Assembly (NCBI GenBank): GCA_003990765.1
Contig: RBNJ01000296.1
Span: 1-33,829 of the forward strand
Direction: 5' to 3'
Source: Jimgerdemannia flammicorona
Lineage: Eukaryota
DNA length: 33,829 bases
Each line of letters begins with the position of its first letter. The first letter of the stretch is position 1. The notes beneath the pieces were generated by a model, which was not told the DNA's origin, made no database searches, and worked only from the letters and a program-made list of their open reading frames with translations. A program made the translations under genes and the position numbers. Shown here piece by piece: positions 1 through 27,159 of this stretch.

Positions 1-215
1 TTTTTTCTTATTTATAAAAAGTAAGTTTATTTTAAATGTACTTTTTATTATCTAAAATATAATAAATATTGATGATTTATATTACACAAAATATTATACT
101 ACTAACACTTTAAAACTATACTGTTTAGTTTTATTTTAAAAATAAAGTTAAAAGAAAACAAATGCTAATAGTATCAAAGTATACATATATAAAAAGAGAA
201 TATATTTAACATGCT
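1..215. other. AT-rich, CpG-free stretch, probably the edge of a mutated repeat relic
   Basis: Very AT-rich with no CpG, ending abruptly just before the methyltransferase stop codon; same composition as other TE relics in the window. Confidence 0.4.
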
Positions 216-237
216 GGAGATATCGCAATGTACAGTA

Positions 238-1008
238 TCACCCCCGTTTAGCATAAATCATAAAATTGACAACACTATCTGAAAGCTGAAACCTCTCGAC
301 GTTCACTTTGAAGCCATGCCTCTGAAGAATATCATAGATCACATCGACTCTCCTTTCTTGTCTGCCATCCTCTCCAATCTCTTCAACATCTGGTACCTCC
401 ATCGCTATCTGCCAGATCCGATCCCAATGTTCGTCATGAATACCCCGCAACACGAGTAATTCGGCCCCTTCGACATCAATCTTGAGAAAATCAACCCGGT
501 CAACTTCATGCTCGGTCAAGACGCCCGACAGAGTGCGCATCGGCACGCGATAGTCCGTTGCACCTTCGAATGCCTGGAGTCCTAATAGACTACCCTGCAA
601 TCGCACCTTTTCGGCGTGATTCAGAGTCGAGTTGCCTGGTATGCGTGGATAGAATGTGAAAGACACGGCATCGCACGCCTCATGCCCAAGAGCCACGTTG
701 AAAAGCTTGGTCGAAATGCGATCCGAATGAGAATCGCAGTTCCGACGGACATTCCGGCAAAGGACATCGAAGATGGGTGGAAGCGCCTCGAACCCATAGT
801 ATTTCACTTGCGGTAACGGGTACTCTGTTGGCTGTCCTTCGAACGCCGCGTGCATTGCATATTGACAGAAGACGCCAATGTTCGCTCCGATATCAAATAC
901 AACGTCACCCGGTCTTAGCGCAATTCCGTGTGCAGAGTAAATGGTATCTTCGAAGATCTCCTTGTAGATAAAGGCGGCCTCGGAGAATGACCCCTGAAGG
1001 ATGTCCAT
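238..1008 (-). CDS. FkbM-family SAM-dependent methyltransferase (256 aa, intronless)
   Basis: Motif I VVFDIGANIGVF, GFEALP, FNVALG, VDFLKIDVEGAELLVLRGI and QIAMEV are the typical FkbM/Methyltransf_21 pattern; the ORF is uninterrupted. Confidence 0.9.
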   Translation of the reverse strand: MDILQGSFSEAAFIYKEIFEDTIYSAHGIALRPGDVVFDIGANIGVFCQYAMHAAFEGQPTEYPLPQVKYYGFEALPPIFDVLCRNVRRNCDSHSDRISTKLFNVALGHEACDAVSFTFYPRIPGNSTLNHAEKVRLQGSLLGLQAFEGATDYRVPMRTLSGVLTEHEVDRVDFLKIDVEGAELLVLRGIHDEHWDRIWQIAMEVPDVEEIGEDGRQERRVDVIYDILQRHGFKVNVERFQLSDSVVNFMIYAKRG

Positions 1009-1248
1009 GATACAGCCGGCAATAATATTTTCGCTGGATTGTATTGCGAGTCACATGAAATCACGTGCATTCCATGGCATCTCCGCTACCAAAATGCAGA
1101 ATGGCTCAATAATTATTTTTATTTTCATTTTTTAACAATTTCACGAAGAATATTTTACTAATTTCAAGCCATCAAAGGAAAGTGAATATGTGTTTGTTTA
1201 CATTCTCAAATTGTGATCCCACAGAAGGGAAAAACATAATACGGAAAT

Positions 1249-3258
1249 TTAGTAACTCAAGACGGTGCATTGGTTTTCCGACTGAAAATTGATGTTAGAC
1301 CGGTCACAGTTAGACCAGTCACCATTCGTCTTCAAGCTGGCGACCCCGGGGAAGACGGTCAAGAGAACTGATCGGTCCTCTTGATGCTCCTCACCCTTTT
1401 TCGATCGGTTGACGGATTGTGTAGCGTTGTGCCAATCGCTCCGTAACGATACGACGCCAGACCCGGTATCTTCGCCTAAGATAGAAATACGGTCGAGGGC
1501 AGTCCCTGCAAAGATTATCGCCAATCCCTCGCCCTCCATGATTTCCATTTGCAAACGAATATGGATACAGGTGTACACGAGAGAAAATATACTAGACGTC
1601 CATGCCTCTTGATCTCCTAGCCGGTTAAGAACATCCATTACAGTCCTGCACCTCAGTATCCAGAAGTCATACAATTTGTCTGCGATATCTGATGGCAAAT
1701 TACAGCTGTGGAATGGGCCATCGCTGAGTGTCATCTCGATACCCGGTTTCGGTAGCTTGTCTATCAGAAGTCTGGCGAATTCCGATTTCGTTCGTGTTAC
1801 TAGAACCTTGATCTCCGACTCCTTGCTTGAATTCGGTCTCAAAGATTGTAATACGGCAAACGTCTGCTCTAACTCGGGGAATATCGTTTCGGCTGGGACG
1901 AACTCGAATACGTCACCGAGAATGGCAGTATCCCAAATAGTAGTCAGTTTGCTGATGATTATATGTTCGATAAGGCGTTTTTGGATGGGTTTGTTGAACC
2001 GAGCAACTCCGGAAGCATTGTTCATCGATACTATGCCACCCACAAAATCTTCATAAAAGCTGCGAATCGTATCTGTTTGCAATGAGTTTTGTGTGATCAT
2101 GTTGTCCACCAATTTGCGCAGGGTCTGATACAGTTTCAACCACGATTGGTTGAACGTAACAGGGTTAACGCCGTCCATCGCATGCAGGCCGCTATTGCTG
2201 CCACCGTCTCCGCTACGTGGGCGGAGGCTTAACTCGGTGTGCAATTGTTTTTCCATTTCCATGAGTTTTCCATACATTGTCGTTTTCTCGGCCGCCAAAA
2301 TTTCGACGTCCTTCAAATGCTGCTCTTGTAGGCGCTTATTCTCGTAAGTCAGTTCGCGGCTCGCGCCGTCTTTTTCAAGGTGAATGACCCTGATCTCGTC
2401 TTCGAATCGTTTGATCTGGCCCTTGCTTTTACGATTTTCGTCTTCGAGTCGTTTGATCTGGTCCTTGCTTTTACGATTTTCGTCTTCGAGTCGTTTGATC
2501 TGGTCCTTGCTTTTACGATTTTCGTCTTCGAGTCGTTTGATACAGTCCTGGCTTTTACGACAATCGTCCGTCAAGCGTTGGTTCTGTTGGCTCATATCTT
2601 TATAACGCTTTTCAAGATCGTTCCAATCTTGATCGAGTGGACGAACGGCTCTGCCTGGGTCTTCTCGGATCTGGCGTTCGGATGTGCCGTTGATCCTTCC
2701 CTTGTTGCCATTGCCAATCGAAAAATGGCTGTGATTCCCAGTGCCTTGAGCGTCGTATATTGAGTGTCGGGTCCGTTTGCTTTGTACTGCTTTCTCGGAA
2801 CCACCTGCATTATGAGACTCGCTAGTAGATATTGCGTTTTGCTTTCGACCCTGTGTTGTGTTTTTGTCGCTGTCGCCTTCGAGTTTGTACTGTGTTGTGT
2901 TTTCGTCGCTGTCGCCTTCGGGCTTGTACTGTGTTGTGTTTTCGTCGCTGTCGCCTTCGGGCTTGTGCTCGGTGTCCTTGCTAACGCCGTTGGTCTCCCA
3001 CCTGCGTGGAGGCTGTTGAGCCTTTCCGTGTACTGTAGCCGTGGTCATAGTTGGCGGGGCTGGTGGTGCCTTGTCCTTGCCGACGGCCTCTTGGATTTTT
3101 TTTGGCTTGGATTGTTGTTTCTTGGTTGGACTGACCCATTCGTAGAATTTCTCTTGGACCATCCCGATAACCCCCGTCGATCGATGAGCCGTTTGCTGGC
3201 CGTTTCGGTCTTCAGACATTTCCTGAGGCGCGTCAGAGGGGAGTTGGGATGTTACCAT
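1249..3258 (-). CDS. Coiled-coil protein (about 669 aa, intronless): disordered N-terminus, heptad repeats, helical region, GrpE-like C-terminal beta motif
   Basis: Long open frame; first ATG at 3258 (MVTSQLP; the track start at 3378 is TTG); K/E-rich heptads; C-terminal SDWHNA...VLLTVFPGV...QCTVLSY. Confidence 0.8.
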   Translation of the reverse strand: MVTSQLPSDAPQEMSEDRNGQQTAHRSTGVIGMVQEKFYEWVSPTKKQQSKPKKIQEAVGKDKAPPAPPTMTTATVHGKAQQPPRRWETNGVSKDTEHKPEGDSDENTTQYKPEGDSDENTTQYKLEGDSDKNTTQGRKQNAISTSESHNAGGSEKAVQSKRTRHSIYDAQGTGNHSHFSIGNGNKGRINGTSERQIREDPGRAVRPLDQDWNDLEKRYKDMSQQNQRLTDDCRKSQDCIKRLEDENRKSKDQIKRLEDENRKSKDQIKRLEDENRKSKGQIKRFEDEIRVIHLEKDGASRELTYENKRLQEQHLKDVEILAAEKTTMYGKLMEMEKQLHTELSLRPRSGDGGSNSGLHAMDGVNPVTFNQSWLKLYQTLRKLVDNMITQNSLQTDTIRSFYEDFVGGIVSMNNASGVARFNKPIQKRLIEHIIISKLTTIWDTAILGDVFEFVPAETIFPELEQTFAVLQSLRPNSSKESEIKVLVTRTKSEFARLLIDKLPKPGIEMTLSDGPFHSCNLPSDIADKLYDFWILRCRTVMDVLNRLGDQEAWTSSIFSLVYTCIHIRLQMEIMEGEGLAIIFAGTALDRISILGEDTGSGVVSLRSDWHNATQSVNRSKKGEEHQEDRSVLLTVFPGVASLKTNGDWSNCDRSNINFQSENQCTVLSY
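2395..2560 (-). repeat. 42-bp coding tandem repeat (about 3.8 copies) encoding IKRLEDENRKSKDQ
   Basis: Near-identical units start at 2407, 2449, 2491 and 2533. Confidence 0.95.
2851..2967 (-). repeat. 39-bp coding tandem repeat (3 copies) encoding (Y/H)KPEGDSDENTTQ
   Basis: Units start at 2851, 2890 and 2929 (ctgtgttgtgttttcgtcgctgtcgccttcg...). Confidence 0.95.
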
Positions 3259-4242
3259 GACTGCTTGAAAACACTCCACGGGGATGAACTTCAGAGTGTT
3301 ATAAAACTGCGAATGTAGAAATAAAAACGGAAATCCGAGACCCTTACGTTGATATAACGACAACTGCGATAACGACAACGTGATCCCTCAGAAATGGGGT
3401 GGTTTAATTTATAACTGCGGTATACGGCGGGGTCCGTGTATCCTGCGGAACGATTTTAGGAAGCGGGCGGTGTGGCCGTTTTCGACAGTCTTGGTCATGC
3501 CGAGGTCATTGTTTTTTTGGGTAGAGTTCGAGTGCATGGCCCATGACCCTCTGACCGCCCAATCCGGAAATCGGGATGGGAAGTAGACACGGTTTGCTCA
3601 CTGCGGCCGCAACGTCGATCATATACACAGGTCTTTTGATCAACACCGGTACTGCAAACACAGCAATTAGTTACTTCATTCGTCACTGCCATGCTGTCAG
3701 CCATATAACCTAGGGACATGCACGAATATTCGACACCAATAAGGTTTGCGCCCCTGAGAATTAGTTTGACAGAGAAGCGAACAATCCTTTTTTAGTTACC
3801 AAGGGATGGGATGCGCAGTAAAAAAAAAGTCGAAACCTGCATGAACGATTGAAAATGGAATACCCTCCCAGCCTACTGATGCTGGGGTTTGACCACATTT
3901 GTAACTTAGACCTGCGTTCTGAGAAAGGATGTCGGCCTGACATGTTTGTGTTTGTTTGACGGACCCGATTGAGTTACAAGCTATCATGCGGCGTAGTGTG
4001 ACACGCCACCAAACAATGAAAAAGCCGAATAAATATGCGCGATGGCCTCTTGAACTGCCAAGATACAACTAGATAATATGCTCATTGACCCCGCTCAAGG
4101 TATGCTCGCGTCTTCATTGAACGGTTTAGTGCTGGAGGGAGTTTTGGTAACAGCGATATCGAATGGATATGAACGTTGGCTCAAGTTATATTCTTTTTAT
4201 TATCCTCCAAAATATATACATAAAATAAAAGCCAAACTTAGC
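3259..4242. promoter_or_regulatory. Intergenic region between divergent genes, putative bidirectional promoter
   Basis: Lies between ATG 3258 (-) and ATG 4243 (+); TATAAA on the minus strand near 3407-3412; no TE-like composition. Confidence 0.5.
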
Positions 4243-7200
4243 ATGACCAATTTGTTGTCAGCATCGCAGCCAAACAGCGTGCAACCGCACTTTGGTCTCA
4301 ATGCCCGAGTTATCGCCGCAATCGACTTTGGGACCTCTCACTCGGGCTATGCAATGGTAAACGATCCCGACATGAGTGATGCTAAAACGAACATGCGTAT
4401 AATGGGAAAATGGCTCACCTCATACCAAAATTAGGTGCATGTCGCGGACCCCAACACTGTCGTCGAAGCACATTACCTGTGGAAGGACCAGCCAGCTCAA
4501 TACAGCAAGAACCTTACGGCTATCTTGTATGAGTATGATACTCCTACGTCAACGCCCATGGTGGAATCGTGGGGCTACACTGGTACGAAGTACTATTATT
4601 CACCCGTCCACCCGCTCACCCTCCCTTATCGATGGTTGACACGTTATTCTGTTCTGTCTGTGGGGTTTTCTCCACACTTAACGCTTCCAGCCAGGAAAAA
4701 CGGTATTAAGACGAAAGCTGCTGACACCTATTGGTACGTGTCTCGCTTCAAACTCTACCTCGACGAGGACGTCGCGAGCACTTTGCCGGCCCTGCCACCG
4801 GGCCGGACAGCGCTAACCGTGATCGCCGATTATCTGCGTAACCTCTACGACATGGCTCTCAAGGATATCCACGGCAGATGGGGTGGAACCGTGACGGCGG
4901 ATAACGTTGTATGGTTCTTGACCGTGCCTGCGATGTGGACAGAAAAGGCAAAGCAACAGATGAGGGAAGCTGCAGTCATGTCTGGACTGGTAAGAGTTTA
5001 ATTAGTACGTCTGCCCAACCTTGCATAGATGACATGTTCACGGAGATGAAATTCATGAATGGTCCGTCACTTTCCGGTATCACAAGGTTTCCGAGAACGA
5101 TAAGAACAATCCCAATCGATTGAACATTGTTTTGGAGCCCGAAGCCGCTGCAATGTTTTGCTGTCAACAATCGCAACAAAATCTGTTGAGCCGCGGAGAG
5201 ACGTTCATGATCGTCGATGCCGGCGGTGGTACAATTGACTTGGTAAAATCAGTTTCCTCTGAACCTCGTTTAAATCGTATGTTGGAGGAATGTTTGGTGC
5301 TCATTCTCTGATCCGTGTATCATCGTCTCTTTGATTTTGAAGACCGTCCATGAAGTCCAGGGCGATCCAAACACTAATCAGGAATCGTTACGAGAAATTT
5401 CTCACGGTAGCGGCAAATCATGCGGATCGACATTCATCGACGAAGCGTTCATCAACTTTGTCAAGGCGAAATGTGGCGCTGATACCATAGACGAATTTCG
5501 GAAGACCTACGTTTCGGATTGGTTGCGAGTAATGAAGGAATGGGAAGAACACAAGGTAATAGGTATTTTCCTATAGAAACACATCACGGATCCATAGTCG
5601 ACAACCATTAAAGGTATAACTGTATTTTTTTTTTTTTTTTTACTTTATCTAGCGTGCGTTCAATGGCGATATGCGCAGTCAAGAAGATATCCCGATTCCG
5701 ATGAAATTGCGCCAGATGATTGAACGGAACAGATTCAAAGACGACGAAAGCGACGAGGATGACGACTTCGAACAGATCACCATAACTGCCGCAGATTTCT
5801 TTGCCATGTTCGACCCCGTCGTCAATAGCACCCTTGACCTTATCGAACATCAGCTTGACCGTAGTATTCGGAATTTGACTCACTCAAGCCTCGCGGAAGG
5901 CCGAAGTGCTGGCGCCTGCAAGATCGACAAGATGTTCTTTGTCGGCGGGTTCTCGGATAGCGAGTACCTGTGGAAAAAAGCCCAAGAGAAGTTCCAATCT
6001 CGTATACAGTTATTCCGTCCAAATGACCCTGGTAGCGCTGTTGTTAAGGGCGCGGTACTGTGCGGCAAGTTTCCACGGTATGCGATGTTTTGCTTTTTTT
6101 TTTTTTTTTTTTTTTGACTGATCCCACCATGCAGTAGTATCGATTTACCAATACCACCTCTGATAACTGAACCTATGAATGTTTGCAATTATAGGTTTAT
6201 AAGTAGCCGCCGCTCCCGTGTTGCATATGGTGTGAAAACATCTGGGACTTGGACAGCTGATAATCCGGCTGGGGAATCCGCAAAGAAATGGATTGCGGTG
6301 GGTATCCCTGAGGCCATTACAGTACATTTGTGAGGTACAATAATAAGCCATCGATATTGAGTGCATGGATAATCAAATACTAATACGGCTGTCTTTATTT
6401 TATTTTATTTTATTTTTTCTCAACCTACAAGTCTGAAGGAACATATTTTGCGGAAAATCTATTCCATCAGATTGTCAATGTCGATGAACTAGTTGGTATA
6501 GATGAAAGAAAATCGACTATGTAAGTACCATTTCTCCGTCGCACATTTTTTCTATATCATTCTCTTCAGGCTTTTGATAATTTGGACGTTACCCATTCCT
6601 TGCGGATGCACAAACCAGATTTGTTCCCGTCCTCACCACTCAAGATTTCGCGACATTGGAGTTATACACGACCGATTTTGCAAACGAAAAATACATGTTA
6701 TCCTCCATGGTCCTTGCAGGAACTGTGCAGGTTCCGCTGTCCAAATATGTAGCGGATATCCACGTGCGCATCCAGTTCGTGCAGGACGTAAGCGGCAGCA
6801 TGGACGGAACCAAACTCGTCAGTTCGCAGGAAGGTTTGAGAAGGATATGTAGGAAACTGTCACAAGGTGACGAGGTTGGTCTCATCAAGTTTGGTGACTT
6901 TGCCGAAGTCGTCAGGTATGTGTTTCATACATTTTCCAATTCATCTCCAATTTTGTGGTTGCTCGTTTCTCGTTTAACGTCGCTGCTTTAATTACAGTGC
7001 CATTCAGCCGTATACAAAGAGTATCTACAATAACATCAACTATTTGCAACCCCACGGTGGGACCGCTCTGTACGATGCCATCTCCATGGGGGTTCAGAGT
7101 CTCAAAAAGCGTGCCGGGCTCTCGCTTGAACAAACGCACCAGAACGTTCTACTAATCTCCACGGACGGAAAGGAGAACTATTCGAGCGCCAACAGTTTTG

Positions 7201-7559
7201 CCGATATCGAAACCCTGCTCCAGAATCCGCTCATTGCCAACTTCCGCCTCGTACTGGCAATCGCGGGGAACGATAACGTGGACGCCAAGCTCGTCAAGCT
7301 GTTCAACTCGGAGAAATGTAAGGCATATTGCGAGGTCATCAACGTCGATAACTCCAGCGAGGGTATCAAGGAGGCGTATACTCAGATGGGTCAGAAGGTG
7401 CAGCTTCTGAAGTCTGGACATTCGCTGGCGAGCATTAATAAGGCCATTAAATTGGAGATGAAGTTTGGAGCAACAGAAGTATCGGCGGACGCGTTCGTTG
7501 CGAATTCTGGGGTGAAAAAATCTGTTTCCATCAAATTTCATGCAAAAAAATCTGATTGA
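4243..7559 (+). CDS. Atypical HSPA12-type Hsp70 (actin-like ATPase) with an inserted von Willebrand factor A domain; 10 exons, 801 aa
   Basis: Exons 4243-4356, 4435-4582, 4691-4989, 5087-5242, 5343-5555, 5653-6077, 6195-6297, 6432-6520, 6619-6915, 6998-7559; all GT-AG, total 2406 nt in frame. Hsp70 motifs AIDFGTSHSG, LTVPAMW, LEPEAAA, IVDAGGGTIDL, CGSTFIDEAF, VGGFSDSEYL, AVVKGAV, SRRSRVAYGV, MKFGATEV. vWA MIDAS DVSGSM, GGTALYDAI, STDGKEN. Confidence 0.88.
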
Positions 7560-8649
7560 TTCAAATTGCAAATTTTAGCGTAGAGTGGGTCGTTTTATGT
7601 CGTGAGGTAAATGAGGAATTCGTTTAGCTTTGATGATTCTGCAAGGAAAATAAAACACGTGTCATTGTGGTGTATGCTCATGTCAAAGGGACCCGGGATA
7701 TGGTCGGACAAGGAGGATGCAGTCAATGCGGAAATGGTGAAGGTGTAGAATATAAAATGTGAACGGTTATCTTTGGAATTTGCACATCATAGGTCATTTT
7801 TTCAGGCTCGACAGGTTGTATTTCGAAGCTTTACTTATGGAATCCCCTAGCGAGGATGAATGGCGTAACATCAATCAGGGTAGTCGTCGTGTCAGTCGTT
7901 TGCGTGTTCCTACTGCCCTGACAGCTCTCAAAATAGAGATATGTGCCGAAACGTTGGGAAATTCCTCGCGTCCCCCGTGTACGCGACATTTCAATGGTGA
8001 AGAGGCCGAAAGTTCGCATCGAAAACGTTTCGACGTGTCCGCTCAGAGAACACCCCTTGGAGTAAAATTTTGGCCGGTTGGAAGTGAGGAGATGATGGAG
8101 TGCGGATGAGATGCTGGGAAAAGTATGAATACGGCGCAGAGACGTGGCGGCAGTCGTGGTCGTGGTTGCACCTTATATCCACTTCCACTTCGTCGCGACC
8201 TCCACTCCGCTTCTCCACATCTCCGTCTCCAGTATCTACCGGTACCTCCAACAATTGCAACCCATATCTGATTCCTCAGGACGCCACCAACTGCTGGCTT
8301 CTTTTTCCTTATCGATGCGAGGAGGGAAGGAGGGGGGGGTTAGAGGATTTGCACGATTTCGATACTCACGTTCGTGGCAAGCTCCGTTTGATCCCTCTGG
8401 TGTTTGGCAGTTTGGGCCTGCCATCGTTGGCACCCTTCACCGCCATGTGACCTGGTTCCCTAGATGTTGTGGAGGCTGACTTTATTTGCTCAGAAGAGGC
8501 ACCTGATCCTGTAAGAGGCATGACTATAGTTGTGTAAGACAGCAAGGCTACACGTTTGCTCATGCTCGCTTGTCATTTCAGTACTCAGTTGCTCATTGAT
8601 CTAAATTTATAAAAATTAAAACAAAAATATTTGTTATTTATGTTATTTA

Positions 8650-11600
8650 GGTCATGACAGCGACTCTATGAAGATAGAGATAATACTTATAATTCTAATA
8701 TAAATATAAATTATAATGTAGGGATAACTCTAAATACAAACCTACCAGTTATAGAAAGATTATTTTTAGGAATTAGGCGCGAATATAAAACATCACTAGA
8801 TACAGATTCATTAGAAAATCACAGATTTCATGTCAGACCTACTTTTGAGCATAGAAGGCCTGGCTCCAAGCCATCTACTACACAGATGAGATCAAGCAAG
8901 CCCTGAAGGATCAGCTTAACACAACTTACCAAGAAATGAGTGAGGATCTAAACACATTCTACACCAGAATCTGATATTAGATAATTCTTACAAATTATAC
9001 TGCCACTATCTGAGATTAAGTAGCTGGGATAATCTTTATGAAAAGAGTTCACCCAGAGATAGTCCTAGCTATCTACTTATCACCAATAGTCTTAGATCTA
9101 TCACAAAAAGTCACTTATGCCCAGTGATACTGGATAGCCAGACACCCACAAGACTATATAATGGAAAGTATCACCAGAGTTAGAATCAAAGCACCTAAGG
9201 CAACTAGTGTGATCCTTACTATAGTAATCAATTAAAATACACCTCAGTCAAGAGCTACTAAGTAACAGAGAAATAGTGACCCTATGGAGGAACTTGTCAA
9301 GAAGTTTGCCAAAATGACAGTTTATCTAGAAGATATGATAAAGAAAATTAAAGGAAGAGACTAGTACCTAGTTCAGAAATTTGCCACTACCTTAGACAAG
9401 AAGATAGATATCTGCTACACTTGCAGAAAAGAAGACTACTACTCATATAAATATATAAGTGAAATTAAGTGCAAGGTCTAGCTAAGTAATACTATTTGAA
9501 ATAAGAAATAGATCAATATCATTATCTTTGAAAAGATTGAGGAATCAGATGAAGAGGAATGGGAAGTCTACTCTGCTGAGACTATCAAGAAAAATATCTG
9601 CAAACAACCCTATAAGAGACCACCAGAGAGATCTAAGAAGAACTCTATAGAAAAGCAGATAGAGACTGCTATGGAAAGTTAAGATAAAGAGACAGATTAA
9701 GATATAGAGCTAGAACAGGCTATTCAAGATATCATCTAAGGAATCACTCTAGCTAGTAAAGAAGAAAAGGAGAAGAAGCTTTACAAAATCAAAACCTTCA
9801 AGTATAATATCTTCAAAGACCTCAGTCAATAAAAGGTCAATACAATCTTTGGCAAGTTGGCAGAAATACTCACATTTAGACAGCAAATGAGATATAGACT
9901 GGCTGAGACAACCAAGAAGCAAGGTTGGAAGATAACCAAGGCCAACAATGTTTAAGAAGACTCAGGAGATGAGAGCAAAGATAATCATAAGACCTCTGTC
10001 TATACAACCTATCAGATTAAAGATAGAATCTTCAAAGCTATCATTGATACAGGAGCAGAAGGATGTCTCCTCAGCAAGAAAGCAGCAGACCACCTAGGTT
10101 GAGAAGTTGAAGAAGTAATCAAATTGGTATTTATCACAGCAGATAGCACAAGAGCCACACCTCTAGGAAAGATCCAAGATATTCCTATCAAGTTTGAGAG
10201 AACAACTATTCTAGTATATATGATCATGACCAATGCCACCAACTATGATATCTTCATCAGCAACCAGTGGCTTTACATATAAAGCCAAGGTAATAATCAA
10301 TCTGAATACCCAGAAGATGCAGATCATCTGCTGAGATCAGAAGATGCAAATTCCCATTAATGTCAACAAAAGAGTACTGCCTGAAATGGAGGAAGAAGAA
10401 AGCAAGCAAGAAGAAGCCTATATAGTGACTACTGAGAAAAAGAAGAAGAAAGTCAGAGAGATCAGTAAAGAAGACTGGTGCAAGAAGATTACAGAAGAAT
10501 ATACACTACAAGGAGTCTGCCTCCATGGAATCAAGATGTACTATAGTGAGCACATTAATGACTGCTACCAATGTAGCATTAGTATCAGAAAGATCTACTA
10601 GGAAAGAAAACAAAAGGCTCTCGAAAAGCAGGCAAGAGAAGAGGAGGAAGAGGATGATGAACCACTAGCCCTTCTGGAGGATAGTGATGATAAAGAAGAA
10701 ATCAAGATCAAGATTTAGAGAATCTACCTCAATGCAGTTCTACCAGAATACAAGTCAGAGAATACAGCCAAAATACAGTAAAAGAAACCATATTAGAGCC
10801 CCAGACAACTACCCTACTAGCAACTGGTCTAGAGATAACCATTCCAAAGGACTATATCAGAATCCTCAAGACAAGAAGCAGCCTGGCTAGGAGTGAAATT
10901 ACAATTGAAAGAGGAGTCATCAATGTAGATTACATTGAAGAAATACTACTTATTGCTAGAAATCACAATTCTATGATTCTATTTCCAATCAAGAAGAAGA
11001 ACCAACTGGTACAGATATTGATCTTCTCAGTTTTTCAGTCAAGAATAATAGAAGTTAAGAAGTTGAAGGAAATGGAAAGAGGAAGGAAAGAATTCAGATC
11101 CATAAAAAGAGGAGTATTTGCTAGTACCAAGATTACTGAACTGGATCACAAGAAGGAAGAAACTACAAACAGAGATAGCTATACTATTGGAAATAAATTT
11201 CCACTCAAGAAGGAACTCAAGAAGATACTCTATGAATTCAAGGATATCCTAGCCATGGATTTCAAGGATATCAAAGAATAGATCCCACACTACTATTATA
11301 ATGTAGATATACATAGAAGATACTGAACCAATCTATCAAAAAGCAAGGCCAATACTATCAGCCTACTGTAAATGGCTCAGAGAAGAAATCAAGCAGATAA
11401 AAGAAGCCAGTATCATTAAAGAAGCCAGCAGTCCCTGGGCTTCACCAGTTGTACTAGCTCCAAAAAAAGAAAGCAAGCCAGGAGAATTTGCCCCAAGACT
11501 CTGTACTGATTATAGGAAGCTTAACTTAGATATCAAGAAAGATTATCAATCATTACCTCTTATTAGTGATATCTTCATAATCTTAGAAGATGAAGTACAG

Positions 11601-14600
11601 TACTATAGTATCTTAGACCTATAATCAGGATTCTACCAAATAAGCCTCACTGAAGCAGCAAGCAAAAAGTCAGCCTTCATCATCTCAGATAGAACCTATG
11701 TCTATCTGCAAATACCATTCAGAATGTGCAATGTCCCTACAAGCTTCCAGTGAATAATGAACAAAATCTTCCACTATGATATGGGAAGATGGATGATAGT
11801 TTATATAGATGATATTATTATCTATAGTAAGATAGCTGAAAAATATCTACAGTATATCCAGCAGATGATAGAGAAGCTAAGATAGTATGGTCTTTACATC
11901 AAGCCCAAGAAGTGCAAGTTTGCAGAAATTGAGATTATCTATCTTGGCCATATCATTAATCAAGATGGAACACATACAGACCCCCTCAATATTCAAGCAG
12001 TAGCAGTATATCTAAGGCCTACCACAGTTACTGAAGCCTAAGCCTTTATGGGACTCACCTCTTACTACTAAAGATTTATCAGAGAATTCTTTAATATCAC
12101 AAATCCAATCTATGAACTCAATAAGAAGGATATTAAGTTCTAATAAACTGGTAGATAATAAAAAGTATTTGATAAACTTAAGGTCAGACTGATCTAGGCA
12201 GCCATTCTCAGAAGACCTAATTGAACTCAAGAATTTATCCTATAGATAGATATATATAAGTACCTAAGAACTAGGAGTAGTCCTGGTCTAGAAGAAAGAT
12301 AAGATAGAATATATTATCACATATCTTAGCTGAGGAGCTCAAGGAGCTGAAAAAGAGTATGAATCCTATAAGCTGGAATATCTTGCAGTTATCTGGACTA
12401 TAGAGAAGTTCCACTATTATCTAACAGGAAGATACTTCACCATTCAGACAGATCACTCAGCCCTCACTTAGCTACTGACCACTGGGTAACCTAAAGGAAT
12501 CTATGCTAGATAGATCATAATTTTGCAAGTCTATAATATAACTATTGTGCACTACTCAGGAAAAATCAATGCCAATGTAGATACTCTCTTACAGATACTC
12601 CAAAGGACCCCCAATCAGTAAATCAATTATGAATAAGGAGCTCTACTACAGAATCATTATCTATCTGAAATAGCAAAAGATGCCCCAACATCTGGAAGAA
12701 TAGACACAAATGATTATCAATAGAATATAAAAACAATTTGAAACTGATAGAGAAATACTAAAGAAAGAAAAACTACTAGTTATACCTAAATATAAGAATG
12801 AGCAAGTAATGAAATCAGTATATAAACTTAGCTATCTAGGAGGAATAAATACATATGATAAAGCAAGAAGAACAATATAGTGGTCAGGAATGGAGAAAGA
12901 TATTAGACAATTTGTCAAGATCTGTGATAAATATCAGAAACAGAAACAAGACTAATGAAATCAGACTCTGGAATCAGCACACATCAAACTAATATTCTTT
13001 ACACACATTGCAATAGATGTAATCACCTCTTTACCCTTGACTTTGATGGACAACTAATATATCATAGTTATTGTAGACCTTTTCACAAAATAGATAGAGA
13101 TAAGACCTCTCAAAAAAGCCAATACACAGTCAATTGCTAATTTTTTCTATAAAGAAATTATCTGCTGATTCAAACCCCTAGCACAAGTAACTACAGACAG
13201 AGGAACAGAATTTGTGAATTAGTTCTTTAAGATTCTCTATAAGAAGTATAAGATCCAGCACATTTGGACTATAGTGTACTATTCTTAAGAAAATGGACAA
13301 GCAGAAAGGACCAATAAGACTCTCAAGAATATCATTATCAAGATCTGCAATAATTATGAAAATTGGAATCACTATCTGCCAATAGTATTATTCACTCTTT
13401 GAGATATCTAATCACAAAGTATTCATTTCACCTCTTGAGAGATGCTGTTTAGAGAAGAAAGTTCTCAAGAAACTCTATTGTCTAATAGAGATACTATATA
13501 GAAATACATGAATACAGAGATATGAAAACTATATCAAATTAGAAAGAAGGCTGAGAATTATATAACCAAGGTACAGATACTATAATAGAATAATGCAGAA
13601 AAGATTTACAAGACCCTAGAGATTATCAAGATAGGAAATAAAGTTCTGGTATATTGAAATATAATAGAAGCTTCATGATTATAAAAACTGAAGCCTAAGT
13701 AGGAAGAATCTTATCTCATATAAGATATAAAAGAAACTACCTTTTGGCTATAGAAACTCTCAAACACAATCATCTCTACTATCATTTACTGAAACCAACT
13801 CAAGAAGTATCATGACTAACCAATAGAGTACTGTCACAGCCCTCAAGATCATCAGTGCTACATAGTGAGCTATAGAAAGACAATAGTATATTACTGAGCT
13901 ACTGACCATAGAAGAATCCTTTGACAGTATACAGAGTATAGTCCAGACATACTTGTTATAAATCTCATACTTCAAAGTCTATTAGAACTGAACTGAGTTT
14001 CAAGAATACTTCAAGTTGAGACAACTACTAAACTCACAGCTAGATATGGGAAAAAAAGACTAGATTAGAGTGTGTCAGCTCTCTCATGCTCAGATCACAA
14101 CTACTGAATGAGTCAATAAGATATTCAAGAATGATGAGCTGGCCCTAGCCTATCTTCATAAAGTAGTCTCAGGAGACTTTGAATATATCAAGAGATATTA
14201 CTGAGAGTATATAATAATACAAATTACACAATATAAGAAGATATAAATTGTAGAAGCTTAGAAGTTTGAATAGGATATTTCAGAGATAAATCACCTATTT
14301 AAGAGGAAGTTATAATGGTCAATCCAAATTAAGAATATGAATCAGAAGAATTAGACATTTGATCATGGTACCTAAACTCAATTTCTGATATAGTATAGTC
14401 TTACAAACAGCAGTTATTGTTATTTTACAACTGTTAAAGTTTTCACAAATGTTAAACTTTTTGCAAATATTAAACTTTTAGCAATTGTCAAAGTTTTAGC
14501 AGATATTAAAAGATTTAACACTTGTGAAAAGTAACTCACAGAAAACATAATTATAACTTAGCCACCCTAGAGTGAGCAAATTTATATAAATATCCCAATA

Positions 14601-14792
14601 TTTAGAGTGAATAAACCTCAGATCAAAATAGTTCAAGTAAAGAGAAAGCAAAGAAACTAGTAAGCCTGCAGGCAGATACACTTCAAACTCACTCCTCTGT
14701 ACCCTGAGGACTCTGCAAGAGTCAGAACAAGTCAAGTTTTCAAGATACAGAAATCCACCATACTTCTGAGGTTAGGCATCTGCTATATTACA
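8650..14792 (+). mobile_element. Degenerate Ty3/gypsy LTR retrotransposon (gag-PR-dUTPase-RT-RNaseH-INT plus an extra 3' ORF); many stops; boundaries approximate
   Basis: Decayed zinc knuckle CYTCRKEDYY (~9413); protease AIIDTGA (~10036); dUTPase TGL..IP, RSSLA, GVINVDY (10820-10945); RT SSPWASPVV, RLCTDYRKLN, LDL*SGFYQI, VYIDDIIIYS (~11800); RNaseH TDHSAL (~12450); integrase VTTDRGTEF, NGQAERTNKTLK (13187-13327). The RT-RH-INT order is gypsy type. Confidence 0.93.
14523..14792 (+). repeat. Putative 3' LTR of the gypsy element
   Basis: TG...CA bounded, TATA-like box and AATAAA; shares agagtgaataaacctcag with 22057-22074; no matching 5' LTR or clear PPT found. Confidence 0.35.
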
Positions 14793-15115
14793 ACAGTAAG
14801 CACAGTAAGCACAGCAAGTATAGTAAGCACAACATGCATAGCAAGTGCAGCAAGCACAGTAAACACAGTCAATACTGTAAGAACAACAAATATAATAAGT
14901 ATAGCAAGCATAATAATACAGTATTTATTAATAACAAATATATATATAGTAATAAACACAATAAGTACAGTAAGCACAGCAAGCATGGTAAGCACAGTAA
15001 ATACAGTAAGTATAGTAAGTACAGTAAGTGCAGTAAGTGCAGTAAGCACAGTAAGCACACAGTAAGTGCAGTAAGCACAGTAAGCACAGTAAGTGCAGTA
15101 AGTACAGCAAGCACA
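14793..15115. repeat. Degenerate 9-bp satellite (agtaagcac)n
   Basis: Repeated agtaagcac/agtaagtgc/agcaagcac units; it generates the spurious CTY/VLT ORFs. Confidence 0.85.
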
Positions 15116-17488
15116 AATACAGGTAGTATGAATGTCAGAAATTATTATTTGAGAGTCAGAGCAGAGTAATCTGGTAGGTGGCATGAATGTCAGAAATTGA
15201 TAAGACATTATCGAAATACTAAATAGTTAGATGGATAATAGTAGGATATATCAGATAGTTGTTTATTATAAAGTATCTGTAGTGAGCACAGTAAAAATAT
15301 ATATGGCATACATTTATAGAGTGGTACTTTCATATAATGGGACCGGAAAATCACTTGCAGATGTAGAATATGGAGGGTGTGCATTTAGCTACAGGTCCAA
15401 GCTTGGGACTGAGCCTGAGCGTGCACTTAGGGAGGGTGAACTGTATCCCCTGATTGTTGTTCCTAATTTGGATCAACCGTCATATTATTATAATTAATTC
15501 ATGCGATGTGGAAGGAAAACCTCTTGTGATTATGGTGATCTCTAAAGCACGTTTGCAAACTCGTGTAACTCTTAACTGGCTTTCAATGATGGTAGAACTT
15601 GTTCAGTGTCAACAATAATCTGCCGCGTGAGTTATGCCTATATATATATATATATTGCCTTTCTAAAACGGGTTCGATTATTTGGCTGATCCACGTTTCG
15701 ATTTTGCGCTAGCTCGGAAATGTAATTTGGCCCATTCCGGTTAATTAAGCACGAAATTAAAACGTAGGGTTCACTAATCCCGAGGTAAGCAGTCTCGTTA
15801 TTAACAGCGAGAATCCGAGGAGGAATTTTATTCTCGCATATGTGCTTTGTGCAATGTACTGGTGGTTGTACCTTTGCATAGACAGCTACTTCGAGTCATC
15901 CGTTGTGGAAGAATCAAAGCCTCATGAACAGTCCCAGTCAGATTATAGTGACACTTTGAGTTGTAATAAATAAACGATTTAAAATCGTCAGTATCAGTTG
16001 TCACAAACTTCGACCAACAGACACCAAAATGTAATTATCCTTCGCTGCGCCCCAGACATAATTAGATAGCAACAATAACCTAGAATGAGACGATTTTTAT
16101 GTCATCCGACTTGGCGGTGGAAACCGACGTACTATATAGTCAACGTGTCAAACTGCTTTCCTGACCATCACGTGCTAACGACATGACTATGAGAACATTC
16201 ACCTGTAAAAACAGCTTTTGACCCTACCTGCCGTCGCCATTACCAACCATATAACCTGATAGTCTCCAATGAGTACGTCTATTTATTTTTTTCATTGCTG
16301 TATAGGGTAGGGAGTTCGGGAACACAGGAACGAAATCATGTCTCGATCGAGAGACTTGATCAAGATTGTGACATTACATGACCGTGACAGCCTGGTGGCC
16401 CGATGATATGTGGTCTGGGAGTTCGGTGATTTTCACGGTTTGTTTACTGCAGTTAATACCACAAAACAATAACGATTAACCGCAGAACACCATAACCGGC
16501 GAACGATGACGAATAACTGTGGAAACAATAACTTACTGTATGAAGGGTTATTGTTTTGCGTCTCGCGTAAACACGTCGTGGTCACTCAAGACTCGAGACG
16601 TCTCGGTCTCATTTGGAGCACTGGGCAACATTTGACTCCCTTTTACGATTCTCCTAGTTTTAAATTAACCATGGAACCACAGCTGCTTTACATATAGTGT
16701 AAGGATGTAAATACAATACCTCTGATCAAAAAACCACGAGCTAGCCCCCTGCAGTCGCATACAAAATAATCAGGTAGATCTCTCTTCCATAATTAAAAGT
16801 TACACGGTGGGATGGAATGATAAATTTGCGGGCCTGGTACATATAAAGACCTTCCCAAATGGATTTCAAAAGAATTAAATATTTGTCAATCGGCGTGTTT
16901 TGTTTACTGCGGTCCGAATTTAATGTTCCCGGGCGTTGGAACGGAATGACGGATGTGTTTCTGTAAACCCGACCCGACCCGCCCAAATTTAGAAACCCGT
17001 ATAATTGACGGAATTGATCCTCCGAACGTCTCGCTCTTTCTCCGAGGAGACCGAGGAGACCGAGACGATGACGTAATCACGTGTCTCGCACGTAGCTGCG
17101 ACAGGTGATGTTTTGTTCCATTCCGAATTGGTGGTTTTGGCCTGTTGGAGTAGATTATTATATTGGATTTTTCTATGAGAGTAGCCGCGGAAATGCCTAT
17201 TAGGCAAAATTAATTCTACACACGCTTTATCTGGTAGAGATTTCTGCGTGCAGGAAATCCTACTGGACTATTTTGGTTTAGATCGACTGAATTGTTTCAT
17301 TTGTGTGGGTTTCGGCAACTTCGTTTATGAGTTTCACGGCGAAATAAACATGGCTGTGTGACGCTAAAGAAGGCTGATGCGGATGATAATATAAACACAT
17401 GGAGGGGTTTGCCATCCGCAGTTTATATTATAAAGGGTCCGTTTGTCCTTTCCCAAACCGCAGAGCCACCTTCCAGACCTTGCCCAAT

Positions 17489-24770: not shown

Positions 24771-24849
24771 GCATTTCAAGACTAAGGGGGGAAGGGGGAT
24801 TGTCATTAGAATATATATATGCTGGTAATCCATTGATAGATCTGCTCCT

Positions 24850-26280: not shown

Positions 26281-26745
26281 CTTAGAATGAATTGAATTAA
26301 ATTAAATTTACCTCTAATTTGATTTAATTTAAAATATTCAAATCAAATTAAGGATTAATTTAATTTAATTTAATTTAAATTAAGGCTTAATTCAATTTAA
26401 TTTGAATCAAATCAAGGTCTAATTCAATTCAAAGTCCAATTTAAACCTAATTTTTCAAAATTCAATAACTTGACCAAAACATATCCAAATTTAAAGAATT
26501 TTAGCTTATTCAATATACCTTATAATAGTAAATCTAGTATAATAAAGAATATTAAATTTAGATATATTTTCATTGAGTTATTATATTTTGAATTTGAGAT
26601 AAATATTTCAAATCAAATCAGACTCCAATTTGATTTAATTGAATCAAATCAGATCTCAATTCAATTTGAATTTAATTTAAATTCAAAAATCCCTAATTCA
26701 ATTTAATTTGAATAATCCTCAATTTGATTAAATTCAAATTGATAT
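26280..26745. repeat. AT-rich quasi-palindromic repeat relic, possibly a decayed MITE
   Basis: Dense aattcaa/ttgaatt/aatcaaat units in both orientations. Confidence 0.4.
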
Positions 26746-27159
26746 AGCTGTATTTATATTTTGACTTATGCTGGTTCCTTAATTTATATTTATCATTGAT
26801 ATCTCATTAATATAGAGTAGTATATAGTATAAACATACCTTTCACTAGTATAATTCACATTATACAAATATCTTTCAATATTTTTTGCACAGTTTTGGAG
26901 AAAAGGTACTAGTAATATAACAATGCACAGGAGTTCTGATAGATATGCTAAATTAGATAGATCTGGGATCTTTGAGTGGCAATATGTTAGGAGGGATTAT
27001 GGTATAAAGATGGGGTTTTTCAGCAGTGAGGGTGGATAAAGTGGGCCTACTCATCCAATCATATATACGGGTGGCAGTTAATAGATGGTACGGGTTATCG
27101 GAGGAGGAAGGCGAGGATTTAATTAAGGTTCATGTCGAGACTAGATGTCCCGCACTATA

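What the first reader, a model, noticed from the sequence alone, without database searches (positions are those of the whole stretch)
1249..7559. Head-to-head pair of an atypical Hsp70-vWA fusion and a GrpE-like coiled-coil protein: candidate dedicated chaperone/surveillance module
Seen: two intact genes diverge from about 985 bp of intergenic DNA, in a CpG-rich island bounded by dead transposon sequence. One is an HSPA12-type Hsp70 with a vWA domain; the other is a long coiled coil ending in a GrpE-like motif set. Established: GrpE is the nucleotide-exchange factor of DnaK-type Hsp70; vWA domains act as substrate adaptors for ATPase chaperones (e.g. MoxR-vWA); paired neighbouring genes are common in fungal and plant immune or allorecognition loci. 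Inference: a co-regulated Hsp70/cognate-cofactor pair with a variable recognition module, perhaps for non-self recognition or defence rather than housekeeping. I know of no description of this exact architecture.
Basis: partly seen in the sequence, partly recalled or inferred. Interest (0 to 1): 0.85.

Follow-up and report, generated by a model that had tools for sequence, protein, structure and literature searches.

The report
Hsp70-vWA ATPase and partner gene pair
A fungal contig carries two expressed genes back to back: an unusual Hsp70-type ATPase with a built-in vWA docking domain, and a coiled-coil protein that also sits beside it in related fungi and may be its helper, which gives a handle on an Hsp70 branch whose job is unknown.

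Summary
The pair is real. The plus gene (10 coding exons, 4243-7559, 801 aa) is a lid-less HSPA12-class Hsp70. It has intact ATP-binding motifs and a MIDAS-complete vWA domain. That domain is inserted into the SBD-beta-like domain, not appended. The minus gene encodes 656 aa and starts at 3219, not 3258. It has a repeat-rich N-terminus, about 140 aa of coiled coil, and a conserved 326-aa C-domain with no Pfam family.

Spliced RNA contigs support all nine coding introns and a 5'-UTR intron in each gene.

The partner domain has only 6 relatives among 1.84 billion representatives. Five are from Endogone or Jimgerdemannia, the genera that also hold the vWA-bearing Hsp70s. In two further loci the two families share a contig with adjacent or near-adjacent locus tags.

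GrpE homology of the fungal partner is not shown. Pfam, PDB sequence and fold searches are negative. HMM-HMM comparison gives only weak, collinear matches (P 0.014 and 0.007).

In bacteria, 17 of 24 HSPA12-like genes are followed by a partner whose tail matches the GrpE beta domain (P 2e-5).

This scan noted the same pairing earlier in Naegleria and bacteria. Fungi are a new lineage for it. No evidence bears on the immune reading.

The parts
1249..3219 (-). CDS of the partner gene (656 aa plus stop), with no intron in the parts covered by RNA contigs
   Evidence: ORF. The 5'-UTR intron joint places the first ATG after the acceptor at 3219, and no ATG lies in the 5' exon. It equals P0001. RNA contigs cover 1177-2450, 2512-2914 and 2937-3221 without joints.
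1252..2229 (-). Conserved 326-aa C-terminal domain of the partner (no Pfam family)
   Evidence: 6 relatives in 1.84 billion representatives, E 6.7e-68 to 3.3e-4. 16 invariant columns. AF2 model pLDDT 64, mostly helical with a few short strands.
1345..1356 (-). VFPG motif in the tail of the partner; the P and G are invariant in the family
   Evidence: It aligns with the 'GY' position of GrpE and of the bacterial partners only in a weak HMM-HMM alignment (P 0.0073).
2230..2646 (-). Coiled-coil segment (about 140 aa), including 3.9 copies of a 14-residue unit
   Evidence: Weak matches to coiled-coil Pfam families over residues 194-344. 42-nt tandem repeat at 2396-2560, 95% matches. Translation.
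2851..2966 (-). 39-nt x 3.0 tandem repeat encoding a 13-residue unit in the low-complexity N-terminus
   Evidence: 96% matches.
3223..3347 (-).
   Evidence: Joint 3221>3347 in one contig each of X1 and X2; GT-AG placement.
3348..3446 (-). 5' non-coding exon of the partner gene (minimum extent)
   Evidence: 99 letters lie beyond the joint in the X2 contig. No ATG lies in it.
3447..4068 (.). Spacer between the two mapped 5' exons (about 0.6 kb at most); presumed bidirectional promoter
   Evidence: Inferred from how far the spliced contigs reach. No heat-shock-element excess.
4100..4231 (+). 5'-UTR intron of the Hsp70-vWA gene (132 nt, GTATGC..AG)
   Evidence: Joint 4096>4229 (cut +3) in an X2 contig.
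4243..7559 (+). Hsp70-vWA gene. Coding exons: 4243-4356, 4435-4582, 4691-4989, 5087-5242, 5343-5555, 5653-6077, 6195-6297, 6432-6520, 6619-6915, 6998-7559 (801 aa plus stop).
   Evidence: Model. RNA joints and loose ends. Collinear with Endogone P0002, 783 aa.
4324..4335 (+). Phosphate-1 motif DFGT of the Hsp70 nucleotide-binding domain
   Evidence: D, F, G and T are nearly invariant in the 32-sequence alignment.
5216..5233 (+). Phosphate-2 motif DAGGGT
   Evidence: invariant D/G columns.
6764..7433 (+). vWA domain (about residues 565-760, interrupted by intron 6916-6997), inserted in the SBD-beta-like domain. MIDAS DVSGS lies at 6785-6799; GGT and STDG follow downstream.
   Evidence: Pfam VWA_2 E 1.1e-5 on exon 9 (26.4 bits, cut-off 27). 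VWA 46.6 bits on ortholog P0002. Insertion shown. Motifs.
7434..7556 (+). C-terminal strands (FGATE...F) shared with HSPA12-like proteins that lack a vWA domain
   Evidence: 30 of 32 aligned homologs have 16-111 residues here (most 31-55). 27 of 32 have only 2-9 across the vWA span.

Best explanation
This is a two-gene module so far seen almost only in Endogonales, transcribed divergently from a spacer of about 0.6 kb at most.

Gene 1 is a lid-less HSPA12-class Hsp70 ATPase. Its nucleotide-binding motifs are intact. Its SBD-beta-like domain carries an inserted vWA domain with a complete MIDAS site, so the metal-dependent vWA face probably replaces or adds to peptide binding as the docking site for the target.

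Gene 2 is a dedicated partner: a disordered repeat region, a coiled coil of about 140 aa (presumably for dimerisation), and a conserved 326-aa domain.

Most likely the partner binds the ATPase as its private cofactor. My preferred version is that its tail is a much-diverged GrpE-type 'wing' that promotes nucleotide exchange, as in DnaK-GrpE.

Shown: gene structures, transcription, domain content, co-occurrence of the two families and their recurrence as neighbours.

Inferred: physical binding, exchange activity and the client.
For: - Gene models and transcription.
- Hsp70 identity: DFGT, EPEAAA, DAGGGT and VGGFS motifs. The ortholog model best matches full-length or lid-truncated DnaK (4b9q E 7.9e-20; 7krv TM 0.57).
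- vWA with MIDAS. Inserted rather than appended.
- Partner family: only 7 proteins including itself in 1.84 billion representatives. Five of the 6 relatives are from Endogone or Jimgerdemannia; the sixth comes from an unnamed Logan contig.
- vWA-bearing HSPA12-like proteins were seen only in the window and those two genera. Among the 32 aligned homologs, 4 fill the vWA span, all from those genera. Among 11 relatives scanned with Pfam, 1 has VWA.
- Neighbour recurrence: 2 further loci by locus tag and shared contig, at 31-47% partner identity and 46-52% ATPase identity. The pair has therefore stayed together over deep divergence.
- Analogy: in 17 of 24 bacterial loci with an HSPA12-like gene, a partner ORF follows on the same strand. 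Seven of the 17 built the HMM, so 10 are independent. That family's tail aligns with the GrpE beta domain (hhalign Prob 76.7, P 2.1e-5, 50 columns). Of 16 weak GrpE-HMM hits among 2133 six-frame fragments, 9 fall on the 17 partner ORFs.
- Fungal tail against GrpE: P 0.014, score 23.3, against column shuffles of 12.1 +/- 2.5, maximum 18.9, 0 of 40 reaching it.
- Fungal tail against merged GrpE plus bacterial partners: P 0.0073, 29 columns joining the LH.A and FPG motifs, 0 of 40 shuffles reaching it.
Against: - No significant sequence or profile match of the fungal partner to GrpE. Pfam has none at E<=1 for the whole protein or at E<=10 among the families shown for 7 members. PDB phmmer and hmmsearch find none at E<=10.
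- hhalign probabilities are only 3-16%. A global alignment fails (P 0.78).
- The fungal and bacterial partner families are not detectably related (P 0.34-0.43).
- The partner domain (326 aa, about 8 helices) is twice the size of a GrpE core.
- Its AF2 model is of middling confidence. The tail is below pLDDT 50, so the fold searches could not test it.
- Column shuffles are a lenient null.
- Orientation in the two other fungal loci is not known; only tags and shared contigs are.
- Three Jimgerdemannia partner paralogs (P0006, P0007, P0008) have no known Hsp70 neighbour. This could not be checked.
- Segmental duplication of a two-gene block would also keep neighbours together.
Confidence: 0.5

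Rival explanations
1. The partner is functionally linked but is not a nucleotide-exchange factor and is not GrpE-related. It would be the client, an adaptor or a scaffold captured by the vWA MIDAS face, for example through the acidic stretch just before the VFPG motif. Its C-domain would belong to another coiled-coil-plus-tail family of the MIEAP or GIL1/IRKI kind.
For: - Complete MIDAS site in the inserted vWA.
- An acidic run (EE.QED / EECEED) lies upstream of VFPG in most members.
- The language-model look-up gives PF24994 GIL1_IRKI_C (0.82) and PF16026 MIEAP (0.79-0.81) as the nearest named clusters, both for the whole domain and for residues 205-326. The top unnamed clusters score 0.94 with 189 shared features.
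- The GrpE tests are statistically weak.
Against: - Atlas scores under 0.9 are leads only, by the tool's own calibration.
- Neither family appeared in the Pfam output at E<=10 (member 1's full table and the 25 most-shared families of 61).
- Nothing tests vWA binding.
- The bacterial analogues keep a partner although the 12 ATPase ORFs scanned have no vWA. A partner is therefore not tied to the vWA domain.
Confidence: 0.22
2. The two genes are neighbours by descent only. An ancestral two-gene block was duplicated and inherited within one fungal family, the genes share a bidirectional promoter, and the proteins do not act together.
For: - All fungal examples come from one order.
- There are only three loci, and orientation in the other two is unknown.
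- No paralogous pair lies elsewhere in the window.
- Three partner paralogs have no known Hsp70 neighbour.
Against: - The two families have the same narrow taxonomic range although HSPA12-like proteins without vWA are widespread in fungi.
- Adjacency persists at 31% partner identity.
- Bacteria, and by earlier notes of this scan Naegleria, independently keep an HSPA12-like gene beside a coiled-coil or GrpE-like partner.
Confidence: 0.18
3. This is the first reader's reading: the module is an immune or allorecognition device whose vWA or repeat region is a fast-evolving recognition part.
For: - Lineage-restricted families with several paralogs per genome.
- Near-identical tandem repeats in the partner N-terminus (95-96% matches), and a very diverged N-terminus (13-23% identity).
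- Many RNA contigs 90-95% alike indicate further copies (31 of 105 laid in X1, 31 of 79 in X2).
Against: - No NLR, HET, TIR, death-like or other immune-type domain was found in either protein.
- The vWA is conserved with an intact MIDAS site and is only moderately more diverged than the ATPase part.
- No polymorphism or dN/dS data could be obtained.
- This reading is compatible with, not an alternative to, the cofactor mechanism.
Confidence: 0.1

Closest known systems
DnaK-GrpE (Hsp70 with its dimeric coiled-coil nucleotide-exchange factor; Pfam PF00012 and PF01025)
   Same: An Hsp70-fold ATPase is encoded beside a protein with an N-terminal coiled coil and a C-terminal domain. The last ~70 residues of that domain show a collinear, weak resemblance to the GrpE beta domain (LH.A ~ HEA, FPG ~ GY, C.VLS ~ A.V.V).
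   Different: - The ATPase is HSPA12-class, has no helical lid and has a vWA insert.
- The partner is 656 aa with a 326-aa domain, against about 160 aa for a GrpE core.
- There is no Pfam GrpE match.
- No J-protein was seen in the window.
- The genes are divergent rather than in an operon.
Vertebrate and mollusc HSPA12A/HSPA12B, and fungal 'actin-like ATPase domain-containing' HSPA12-like proteins
   Same: These are the best named sequence relatives (25-35% identity over about 520 residues). They share the lid-less architecture and the same C-terminal strands. A 2026 review states that their function is unknown (PMC13580251, passages read).
   Different: Among the 32 homologs aligned, only 4 fill the vWA span, and all 4 are from Endogone or Jimgerdemannia. 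No partner gene is described for HSPA12 in the papers my searches listed.
Bacterial HSPA12-like ATPase plus downstream GrpE-tailed partner operon, and the Naegleria HSPA12-vWA plus coiled-coil genes noted earlier in this scan (e1-672721, e1-1911981, e1-636974)
   Same: The logic is the same: an orphan Hsp70 keeps its own partner gene. I re-tested the bacterial part: 17 of 24 loci have the partner, and its tail against GrpE gives P 2.1e-5. By those notes, Naegleria also has the vWA fusion.
   Different: The fungal partner family is not detectably homologous to the bacterial one (P 0.34-0.43). The 12 bacterial ATPase ORFs scanned have no vWA. I had no Naegleria sequences to compare.
MoxR (AAA+)-vWA pairs
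   Same: An ATPase works together with a MIDAS-bearing vWA domain that docks the target.
   Different: Here the ATPase has the Hsp70 actin-like fold, not AAA+. The vWA lies inside the same polypeptide, not in a neighbouring gene.

Membership tests
Hsp70 superfamily, HSPA12-like branch (plus gene) | Actin-like ATPase motifs of the Hsp70 NBD (phosphate-1 DxG, connect EPxAA, phosphate-2 DxGGGT, adenosine GG motif) | tested here: met
   DFGT at residue 28, EPEAA at 204, DAGGGT at 231, VGGFS at 407 of the 801-aa model. These columns are invariant or nearly invariant in 32 homologs.
Hsp70 superfamily, HSPA12-like branch (plus gene) | Closest named relatives are HSPA12A/B rather than canonical Hsp70, Hsp110 or HSPA13/14 | tested here: met
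   With ortholog P0002 as query, the named animal hits are HSPA12A/B-like (E 1e-39 to 1e-24, 25-29% identity). No canonical Hsp70 is among the 120 listed. The Pfam HSP70 match is only weak on relatives (14.7-46 bits).
Hsp70 superfamily, HSPA12-like branch (plus gene) | Hsp70 fold: NBD plus beta-sandwich SBD, without the alpha-helical lid | tested here: met
   AF2 model of ortholog P0002 (pLDDT 76; residues 20-545 mostly above 85). Foldseek best matches are DnaK 4b9q (E 7.9e-20) and lid-truncated DnaK 7krv (TM 0.57, rmsd 6.9 over 579 columns). The window's own spliced protein was not folded.
vWA domain (PF00092 / PF13519) | Pfam match above the curated cut-off | tested here: inconclusive
   Window exon 9 alone: VWA_2 26.4 bits against a cut-off of 27, E 1.1e-5; VWA 18.9 bits against 23.8. 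The domain is split by an intron, so the whole could not be scanned. Ortholog P0002: VWA 46.6 bits, VWA_2 42.4 bits. P0011: 38.1 and 36.1 bits.
vWA domain (PF00092 / PF13519) | MIDAS residues DxSxS ... T ... D | tested here: met
   DVSGS (572-576), GGT (635-637), STDG (669-672) of the model.
GrpE (PF01025) for the partner | Sequence or profile match to the GrpE family | tested here: not met
   No PF01025 match at E<=1 for the whole protein, nor in the output at E<=10 for the 7 family members (member 1's table and the 25 most-shared of 61 families). A local GrpE HMM against the 7 fungal domains gives E 0.3-0.9 in a database of only 7 sequences. No GrpE chain appears in PDB sequence searches at E<=10.
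GrpE (PF01025) for the partner | HMM-HMM similarity of the tail to the GrpE C-terminal beta domain (FDP..HEA ... GY ... RvlRpA.V.V) | tested here: inconclusive
   hhalign gives P 0.014 over 16 columns; P 0.0016 with tails only, 17 columns; and P 0.0073 over 29 columns against GrpE plus bacterial partners. Probabilities are 3-16%. 0 of 40 column shuffles reach the real score in each of the two tests. The global alignment gives P 0.78.
GrpE (PF01025) for the partner | Fold: long dimerising helix, helical bundle, small beta wing | tested here: inconclusive
   The AF2 model of the C-domain has pLDDT 64, and the tail (252-326) is mostly below 50. Foldseek against PDB finds no match at E<=0.001. VIA wide gives a best Z of 5.7 on a helical hairpin only. 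The coiled coil upstream is inferred from weak Pfam coiled-coil matches.
GrpE (PF01025) for the partner | Binds the Hsp70 NBD and accelerates ADP release | not testable with these tools
   This needs pull-down and nucleotide-release assays.
Bacterial partner family of HSPA12-like ATPases | Profile similarity to the family built from 7 or 17 bacterial downstream ORFs | tested here: not met
   hhalign gives P 0.43, 0.41 and 0.34. hmmsearch E values are 0.24-1.5 in a database of 7. The best, non-significant alignment does place VFPG on the bacterial VV.PaY motif.
MIEAP (PF16026) / GIL1_IRKI_C (PF24994) for the partner tail | Pfam match | tested here: inconclusive
   Neither family appears in the Pfam output at E<=10, but HMMER's filters drop most weak matches. 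The language-model look-up scores 0.79-0.82, below the tool's 0.9 mark. No sequences of these families were on hand for a profile comparison.

The most novel reading that the evidence does not exclude
HSPA12-class Hsp70s, whose function is unknown, generally work with a private GrpE-derived exchange factor encoded next door. The Endogonales pair would be the fungal form of a module also present in bacteria and Naegleria. In it the peptide-binding domain has been re-equipped with an inserted MIDAS vWA domain, so the machine grips one specific metal-bridged target instead of unfolded peptides. It would be a dedicated remodelling or surveillance device, not a general chaperone.
Probability: 0.25. 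Interest if true: 0.8.

Novelty: new variant of a known kind. Interest (0 to 1): 0.6.

Why it matters
HSPA12 proteins are the least understood Hsp70 branch. A 2026 review (PMC13580251, passages read) states that their function is unknown.

A partner gene that stays beside the ATPase in fungi, and by analogy in bacteria and amoebae, gives a concrete and testable pair for biochemistry: binding, nucleotide exchange, and the role of the vWA MIDAS site.

The insertion of a vWA domain into the substrate-binding domain would be an unusual way to re-target an Hsp70.

The organisms are plant-associated Mucoromycotina. Near-identical spliced fragments of both genes occur in two root metatranscriptome libraries, so the module is expressed in that setting.

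Tried and rejected
- **Complex prediction.** The natural Jimgerdemannia pair (P0004 1-555 with P0009 269-602) gave no verdict: score 0.00, and the alignments were not used. This is neither for nor against binding.
- **Whole genome.** None is held, so paralog and neighbour counts in the source genome were impossible.
- **Metagenome scans for partner relatives.** The first alignment was too diverse (error). The 4-sequence alignment and the single protein found none.
- **Direct DNA context.** Adjacency there rests on locus tags and shared contig length, and orientation is unknown.
- **Partner domain searches.** No significant hit came from Pfam, PDB sequences, Foldseek or VIA wide (41, best Z 5.7).
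- **Atlas look-ups.** They gave only sub-threshold leads (GIL1_IRKI_C, MIEAP) that I could not test.
- **Fungal against bacterial partner families.** No relation was found.
- **Heat-shock element scan.** 12 matches against 13.2 expected; one lies in the spacer. There is no sign of HSF control.
- **Second copy in the window.** None of either gene.
- **RNA contigs.** No contig was laid on 3497-3723, and next to none on 3724-3950. This is no evidence of a silent spacer. Contigs cannot rank expression, so co-expression is untested.
- **Earlier scan notes.** By place and by sequence there were none.
- **Literature.** HSPA12 with von Willebrand and fungi; Mieap (40, 0 papers); vWA (42); fungi, expansion and actin-like ATPase (43); GrpE (77); and GrpE-like, Hsp70-like and operon (84). 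I saw listings and abstract starts only. None describes this pairing. Subscription journals are not covered.

Full report
**What is in the sequence**

The window is a eukaryotic contig; no whole genome is held. Its closest proteins are from Endogone sp. FLAS-F59071 and Jimgerdemannia flammicorona, both Endogonales, Mucoromycotina.

On the plus strand I built a 10-exon model: 4243-4356, 4435-4582, 4691-4989, 5087-5242, 5343-5555, 5653-6077, 6195-6297, 6432-6520, 6619-6915, 6998-7559. It gives 801 aa, and all nine introns are GT..AG of 78-134 nt. It is collinear with Endogone P0002 (783 aa). Identity is 65% over the ATPase part and 56% over the vWA part.

**RNA evidence**

Four public runs were laid on 1000-7800. 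All are Logan contigs, so they carry no expression levels.

- Contigs of X1 and X2 carry exact spliced joints for five introns: 4357-4434, 4583-4690, 4990-5086, 5243-5342, 6916-6997.
- Loose ends read the neighbouring exon for two more: 5556-5652 and 6078-6194.
- Joints in diverged copies support the last two: 6298-6431 and 6521-6618.
- An extra joint (4100-4231) is a 5'-UTR intron of the plus gene.
- A CT..AC joint (3223-3347) is a 5'-UTR intron of the minus gene.

The first ATG after the acceptor is at 3219, and the upstream exon has no ATG. This gives 656 aa, the same as database protein P0001.

Contigs cover the minus CDS at 1177-2450, 2512-2914 and 2937-3221 without joints. The mapped 5' exons reach at least 3446 and 4069, so about 0.6 kb at most separates the two transcripts.

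Two root metatranscriptome runs (X3, X4) hold a few contigs on both genes, at 90% identity or more. One of them is spliced across intron 2 with 0-2 differences.

**The ATPase**

The Hsp70 nucleotide-binding motifs are intact: DFGT, EPEAA, DAGGGT, VGGFS.

With ortholog P0002 as query, 128 proteins match.
- After the Endogonales proteins, the nearest are fungal 'actin-like ATPase domain' proteins at about 30-35% identity.
- The named animal hits are HSPA12A/B-like at 25-29% identity.

An AF2 model of P0002 (pLDDT 76) best matches full-length and lid-truncated DnaK (4b9q E 7.9e-20; 7krv TM 0.57). The fold is therefore NBD plus beta-sandwich without a helical lid.

The vWA domain has a full MIDAS set: DVSGS, GGT, STDG. 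Pfam support is as follows:
- On the window's exon 9 alone, the VWA_2 match falls just under the cut-off (26.4 bits against 27, E 1.1e-5).
- On P0002 and P0011 the match is clear (46.6 and 38.1 bits).

The vWA is an insertion, not a C-terminal fusion. In the 32-sequence alignment, 27 homologs have only 2-9 residues across the 191-residue vWA span. Thirty of 32 have 16-111 residues in the 41-residue stretch after it, most of them 31-55. The window's last 41 residues (…KFGATEVSADAF…IKF) match that shared tail.

Only 4 of the 32 fill the vWA span, and all 4 are from Endogone or Jimgerdemannia. Twelve bacterial relatives scanned have no vWA.

**The partner**

Pfam finds only weak coiled-coil families over residues 194-344 of the 669-aa ORF, and no GrpE.

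The N-terminal 200 residues are low-complexity with a 39-nt x 3.0 repeat. The coiled coil contains a 42-nt x 3.9 repeat (95-96% matches).

The last 326 residues form a conserved domain. A full HMMER pass over 1.84 billion representatives finds 7 proteins including itself:
- Endogone P0005.
- Jimgerdemannia P0006, P0007, P0008 and P0009.
- One 253-aa protein from an unnamed Logan contig.

Sixteen columns are invariant, including P294 and G295 of the VFPG motif. The N-terminal halves are barely alignable (13-23% identity), against 27-48% for the domain.

**Is the adjacency conserved?**

By locus tag and contig length:
- Endogone partner BC937DRAFT_91693 and Hsp70-like BC937DRAFT_91694 lie on one 6979-bp contig.
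- Jimgerdemannia Hsp70-vWA BC938DRAFT_472784 and partner BC938DRAFT_472786 lie on one 21526-bp contig.

With the window, that makes three loci in three genomes, at 31-47% partner identity and 46-52% ATPase identity.

I could not read the DNA, so orientation is unknown. The neighbours of P0006, P0007, P0008, P0002 and P0012 are also unknown. Two metagenome scans for further partner loci found none.

The two families share the same narrow range: the vWA-bearing Hsp70s and all but one partner relative come from these two genera. HSPA12-like proteins without vWA are common in Mortierellaceae, Mucorales, Blastocladiales, Basidiomycota and animals.

**Is the partner GrpE-like?**

The direct tests are negative.
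- No Pfam GrpE match.
- No GrpE among PDB sequence hits at E<=10.
- An AF2 model of the domain (pLDDT 64, tail below 50) has no Foldseek match at E<=0.001. Its best VIA-wide match is Z 5.7, on a helical hairpin. The tail was therefore not really tested at the fold level.

After earlier notes of this scan pointed to GrpE-like partners of HSPA12-type genes in Naegleria and bacteria, I tested the bacterial part myself.
- 24 bacterial loci encode HSPA12-like relatives.
- In 17 of them a homologous ORF of about 240-290 aa follows directly on the same strand (E<=6e-24). Seven of the 17 built the HMM.
- The misses are L008, L010 (short contig), L013, L014, L016, L017 and L020. L017 and L020 give only weak hits.
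- L013 and L014 have 644-657-aa downstream ORFs instead. The L013 ORF gives a sub-threshold Pfam GrpE match (17.1 bits, E 0.0045).

I built a GrpE alignment from nine GrpE genes of five of these genomes. Against it, the 17-sequence partner profile gives hhalign Prob 76.7, P 2.1e-5 over 50 columns. The match lies exactly on the GrpE beta domain (G..FDP..HEA … GY … RvlRpA.V.V). Nine of 16 weak GrpE-HMM hits among 2133 six-frame fragments fall on the 17 partner ORFs (Fisher 1e-16).

For the fungal partner the same tests give only weak signals.
- P 0.014 over 16 columns, on LH.A against HEA.
- P 0.0016 with tails only.
- P 0.0073 over 29 columns against the merged GrpE-plus-bacterial profile, joining LH.A and FPG in the expected order.
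- In both shuffle tests, 0 of 40 column shuffles reach the real score. That null is lenient, the probabilities are 3-16%, and a global alignment fails.
- Fungal and bacterial partner families are not detectably related (P 0.34-0.43).

The 'GrpE-like motif set' is therefore real as a conserved, collinear pattern. Homology is unproven. I put it near even odds, mainly because of the context.

**Other leads and negatives**

- The language-model atlas gives GIL1_IRKI_C and MIEAP as the nearest named clusters (0.79-0.82) and unnamed Ascomycota clusters at 0.94. These are leads that I could not test.
- The spacer has no excess of heat-shock elements.
- The window holds no second copy of either gene. 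However, many RNA contigs 90-95% alike indicate further copies in the organism.
- No immune-type domain was seen.

**Surroundings**

CpG observed/expected is 1.0-1.4 over 1-8000. There are no CpGs in 8780-15212 apart from one at 10622, against about 190 expected. There are none in 24757-27068, against 37.5 expected. These blocks hold a dUTPase fragment and a retrotransposon Pol beta-barrel remnant. Left of the pair is an FkbM-type methyltransferase ORF.

**Literature**

Six searches (listings and abstract starts only) found no description of an HSPA12 partner or of an HSPA12-vWA protein. A 2026 review says the function of HSPA12 is unknown (PMC13580251, passages read).

**Verdict**

This is a real, expressed gene pair that recurs in relatives. 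The ATPase assignment is solid and is refined: the vWA is an insertion. The partner is a new family of 7 known members.

A dedicated-cofactor role is the best reading (0.5), with a GrpE-type mechanism plausible but unproven. The immune reading is untested.

The same kind of pairing was already noted by this scan in Naegleria and bacteria. The fungal lineage and the insertion architecture are what this window adds.

Noticed in passing
window 8780-15212 and 24757-27068: These blocks are completely CpG-free. The only CpG in 8780-15212 is at 10622, where about 190 are expected; 24757-27068 has none, where 37.5 are expected. GC is 25-36%. They hold a dUTPase fragment (10694-11278) and a retrotransposon Pol beta-barrel remnant (24972-25262). 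The pattern looks like methylation- or RIP-type decay of repeats, sharply bounded against CpG-normal genes.
   Followed up: partly
window 238-1008 (-): A 256-aa ORF with an FkbM-type methyltransferase domain (PF05050, E 2.7e-18) lies next to the 3' end of the partner gene.
   Followed up: no
window 2396-2560 and 2851-2966: Two in-frame tandem repeats lie in the partner gene: 42 nt x 3.9 and 39 nt x 3.0, with 95-96% matches. This suggests recent expansion. RNA contigs break at both repeats.
   Followed up: partly
window 4200-7600, runs X1 and X2: 31 of 105 (X1) and 31 of 79 (X2) laid contigs are only 90-95% alike, and several carry the same intron positions. Further transcribed copies of the Hsp70-vWA gene therefore exist in the organism.
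   Followed up: partly
window 4078-4099 joined to 4232: An upstream ATG at 4078 becomes in-frame with the main ATG once the 5'-UTR intron is removed. It would add 11 residues (MLIDPAQAKLS). Ortholog P0002 starts at the position of 4243.
   Followed up: partly
L013:6747-8717 and L014:6747-8678: In two cyanobacterial loci the gene after the HSPA12-like ATPase encodes 644-657 aa instead of about 240-290 aa. The L013 protein has a sub-threshold Pfam GrpE match (17.1 bits, residues 122-248).
   Followed up: partly
proteins P0119 and P0125: Hydnum rufescens has two HSPA12-like proteins with consecutive locus tags (BS47DRAFT_1384888 and 1384889) on one contig, which implies tandem duplication of the ATPase in a basidiomycete.
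   Followed up: no
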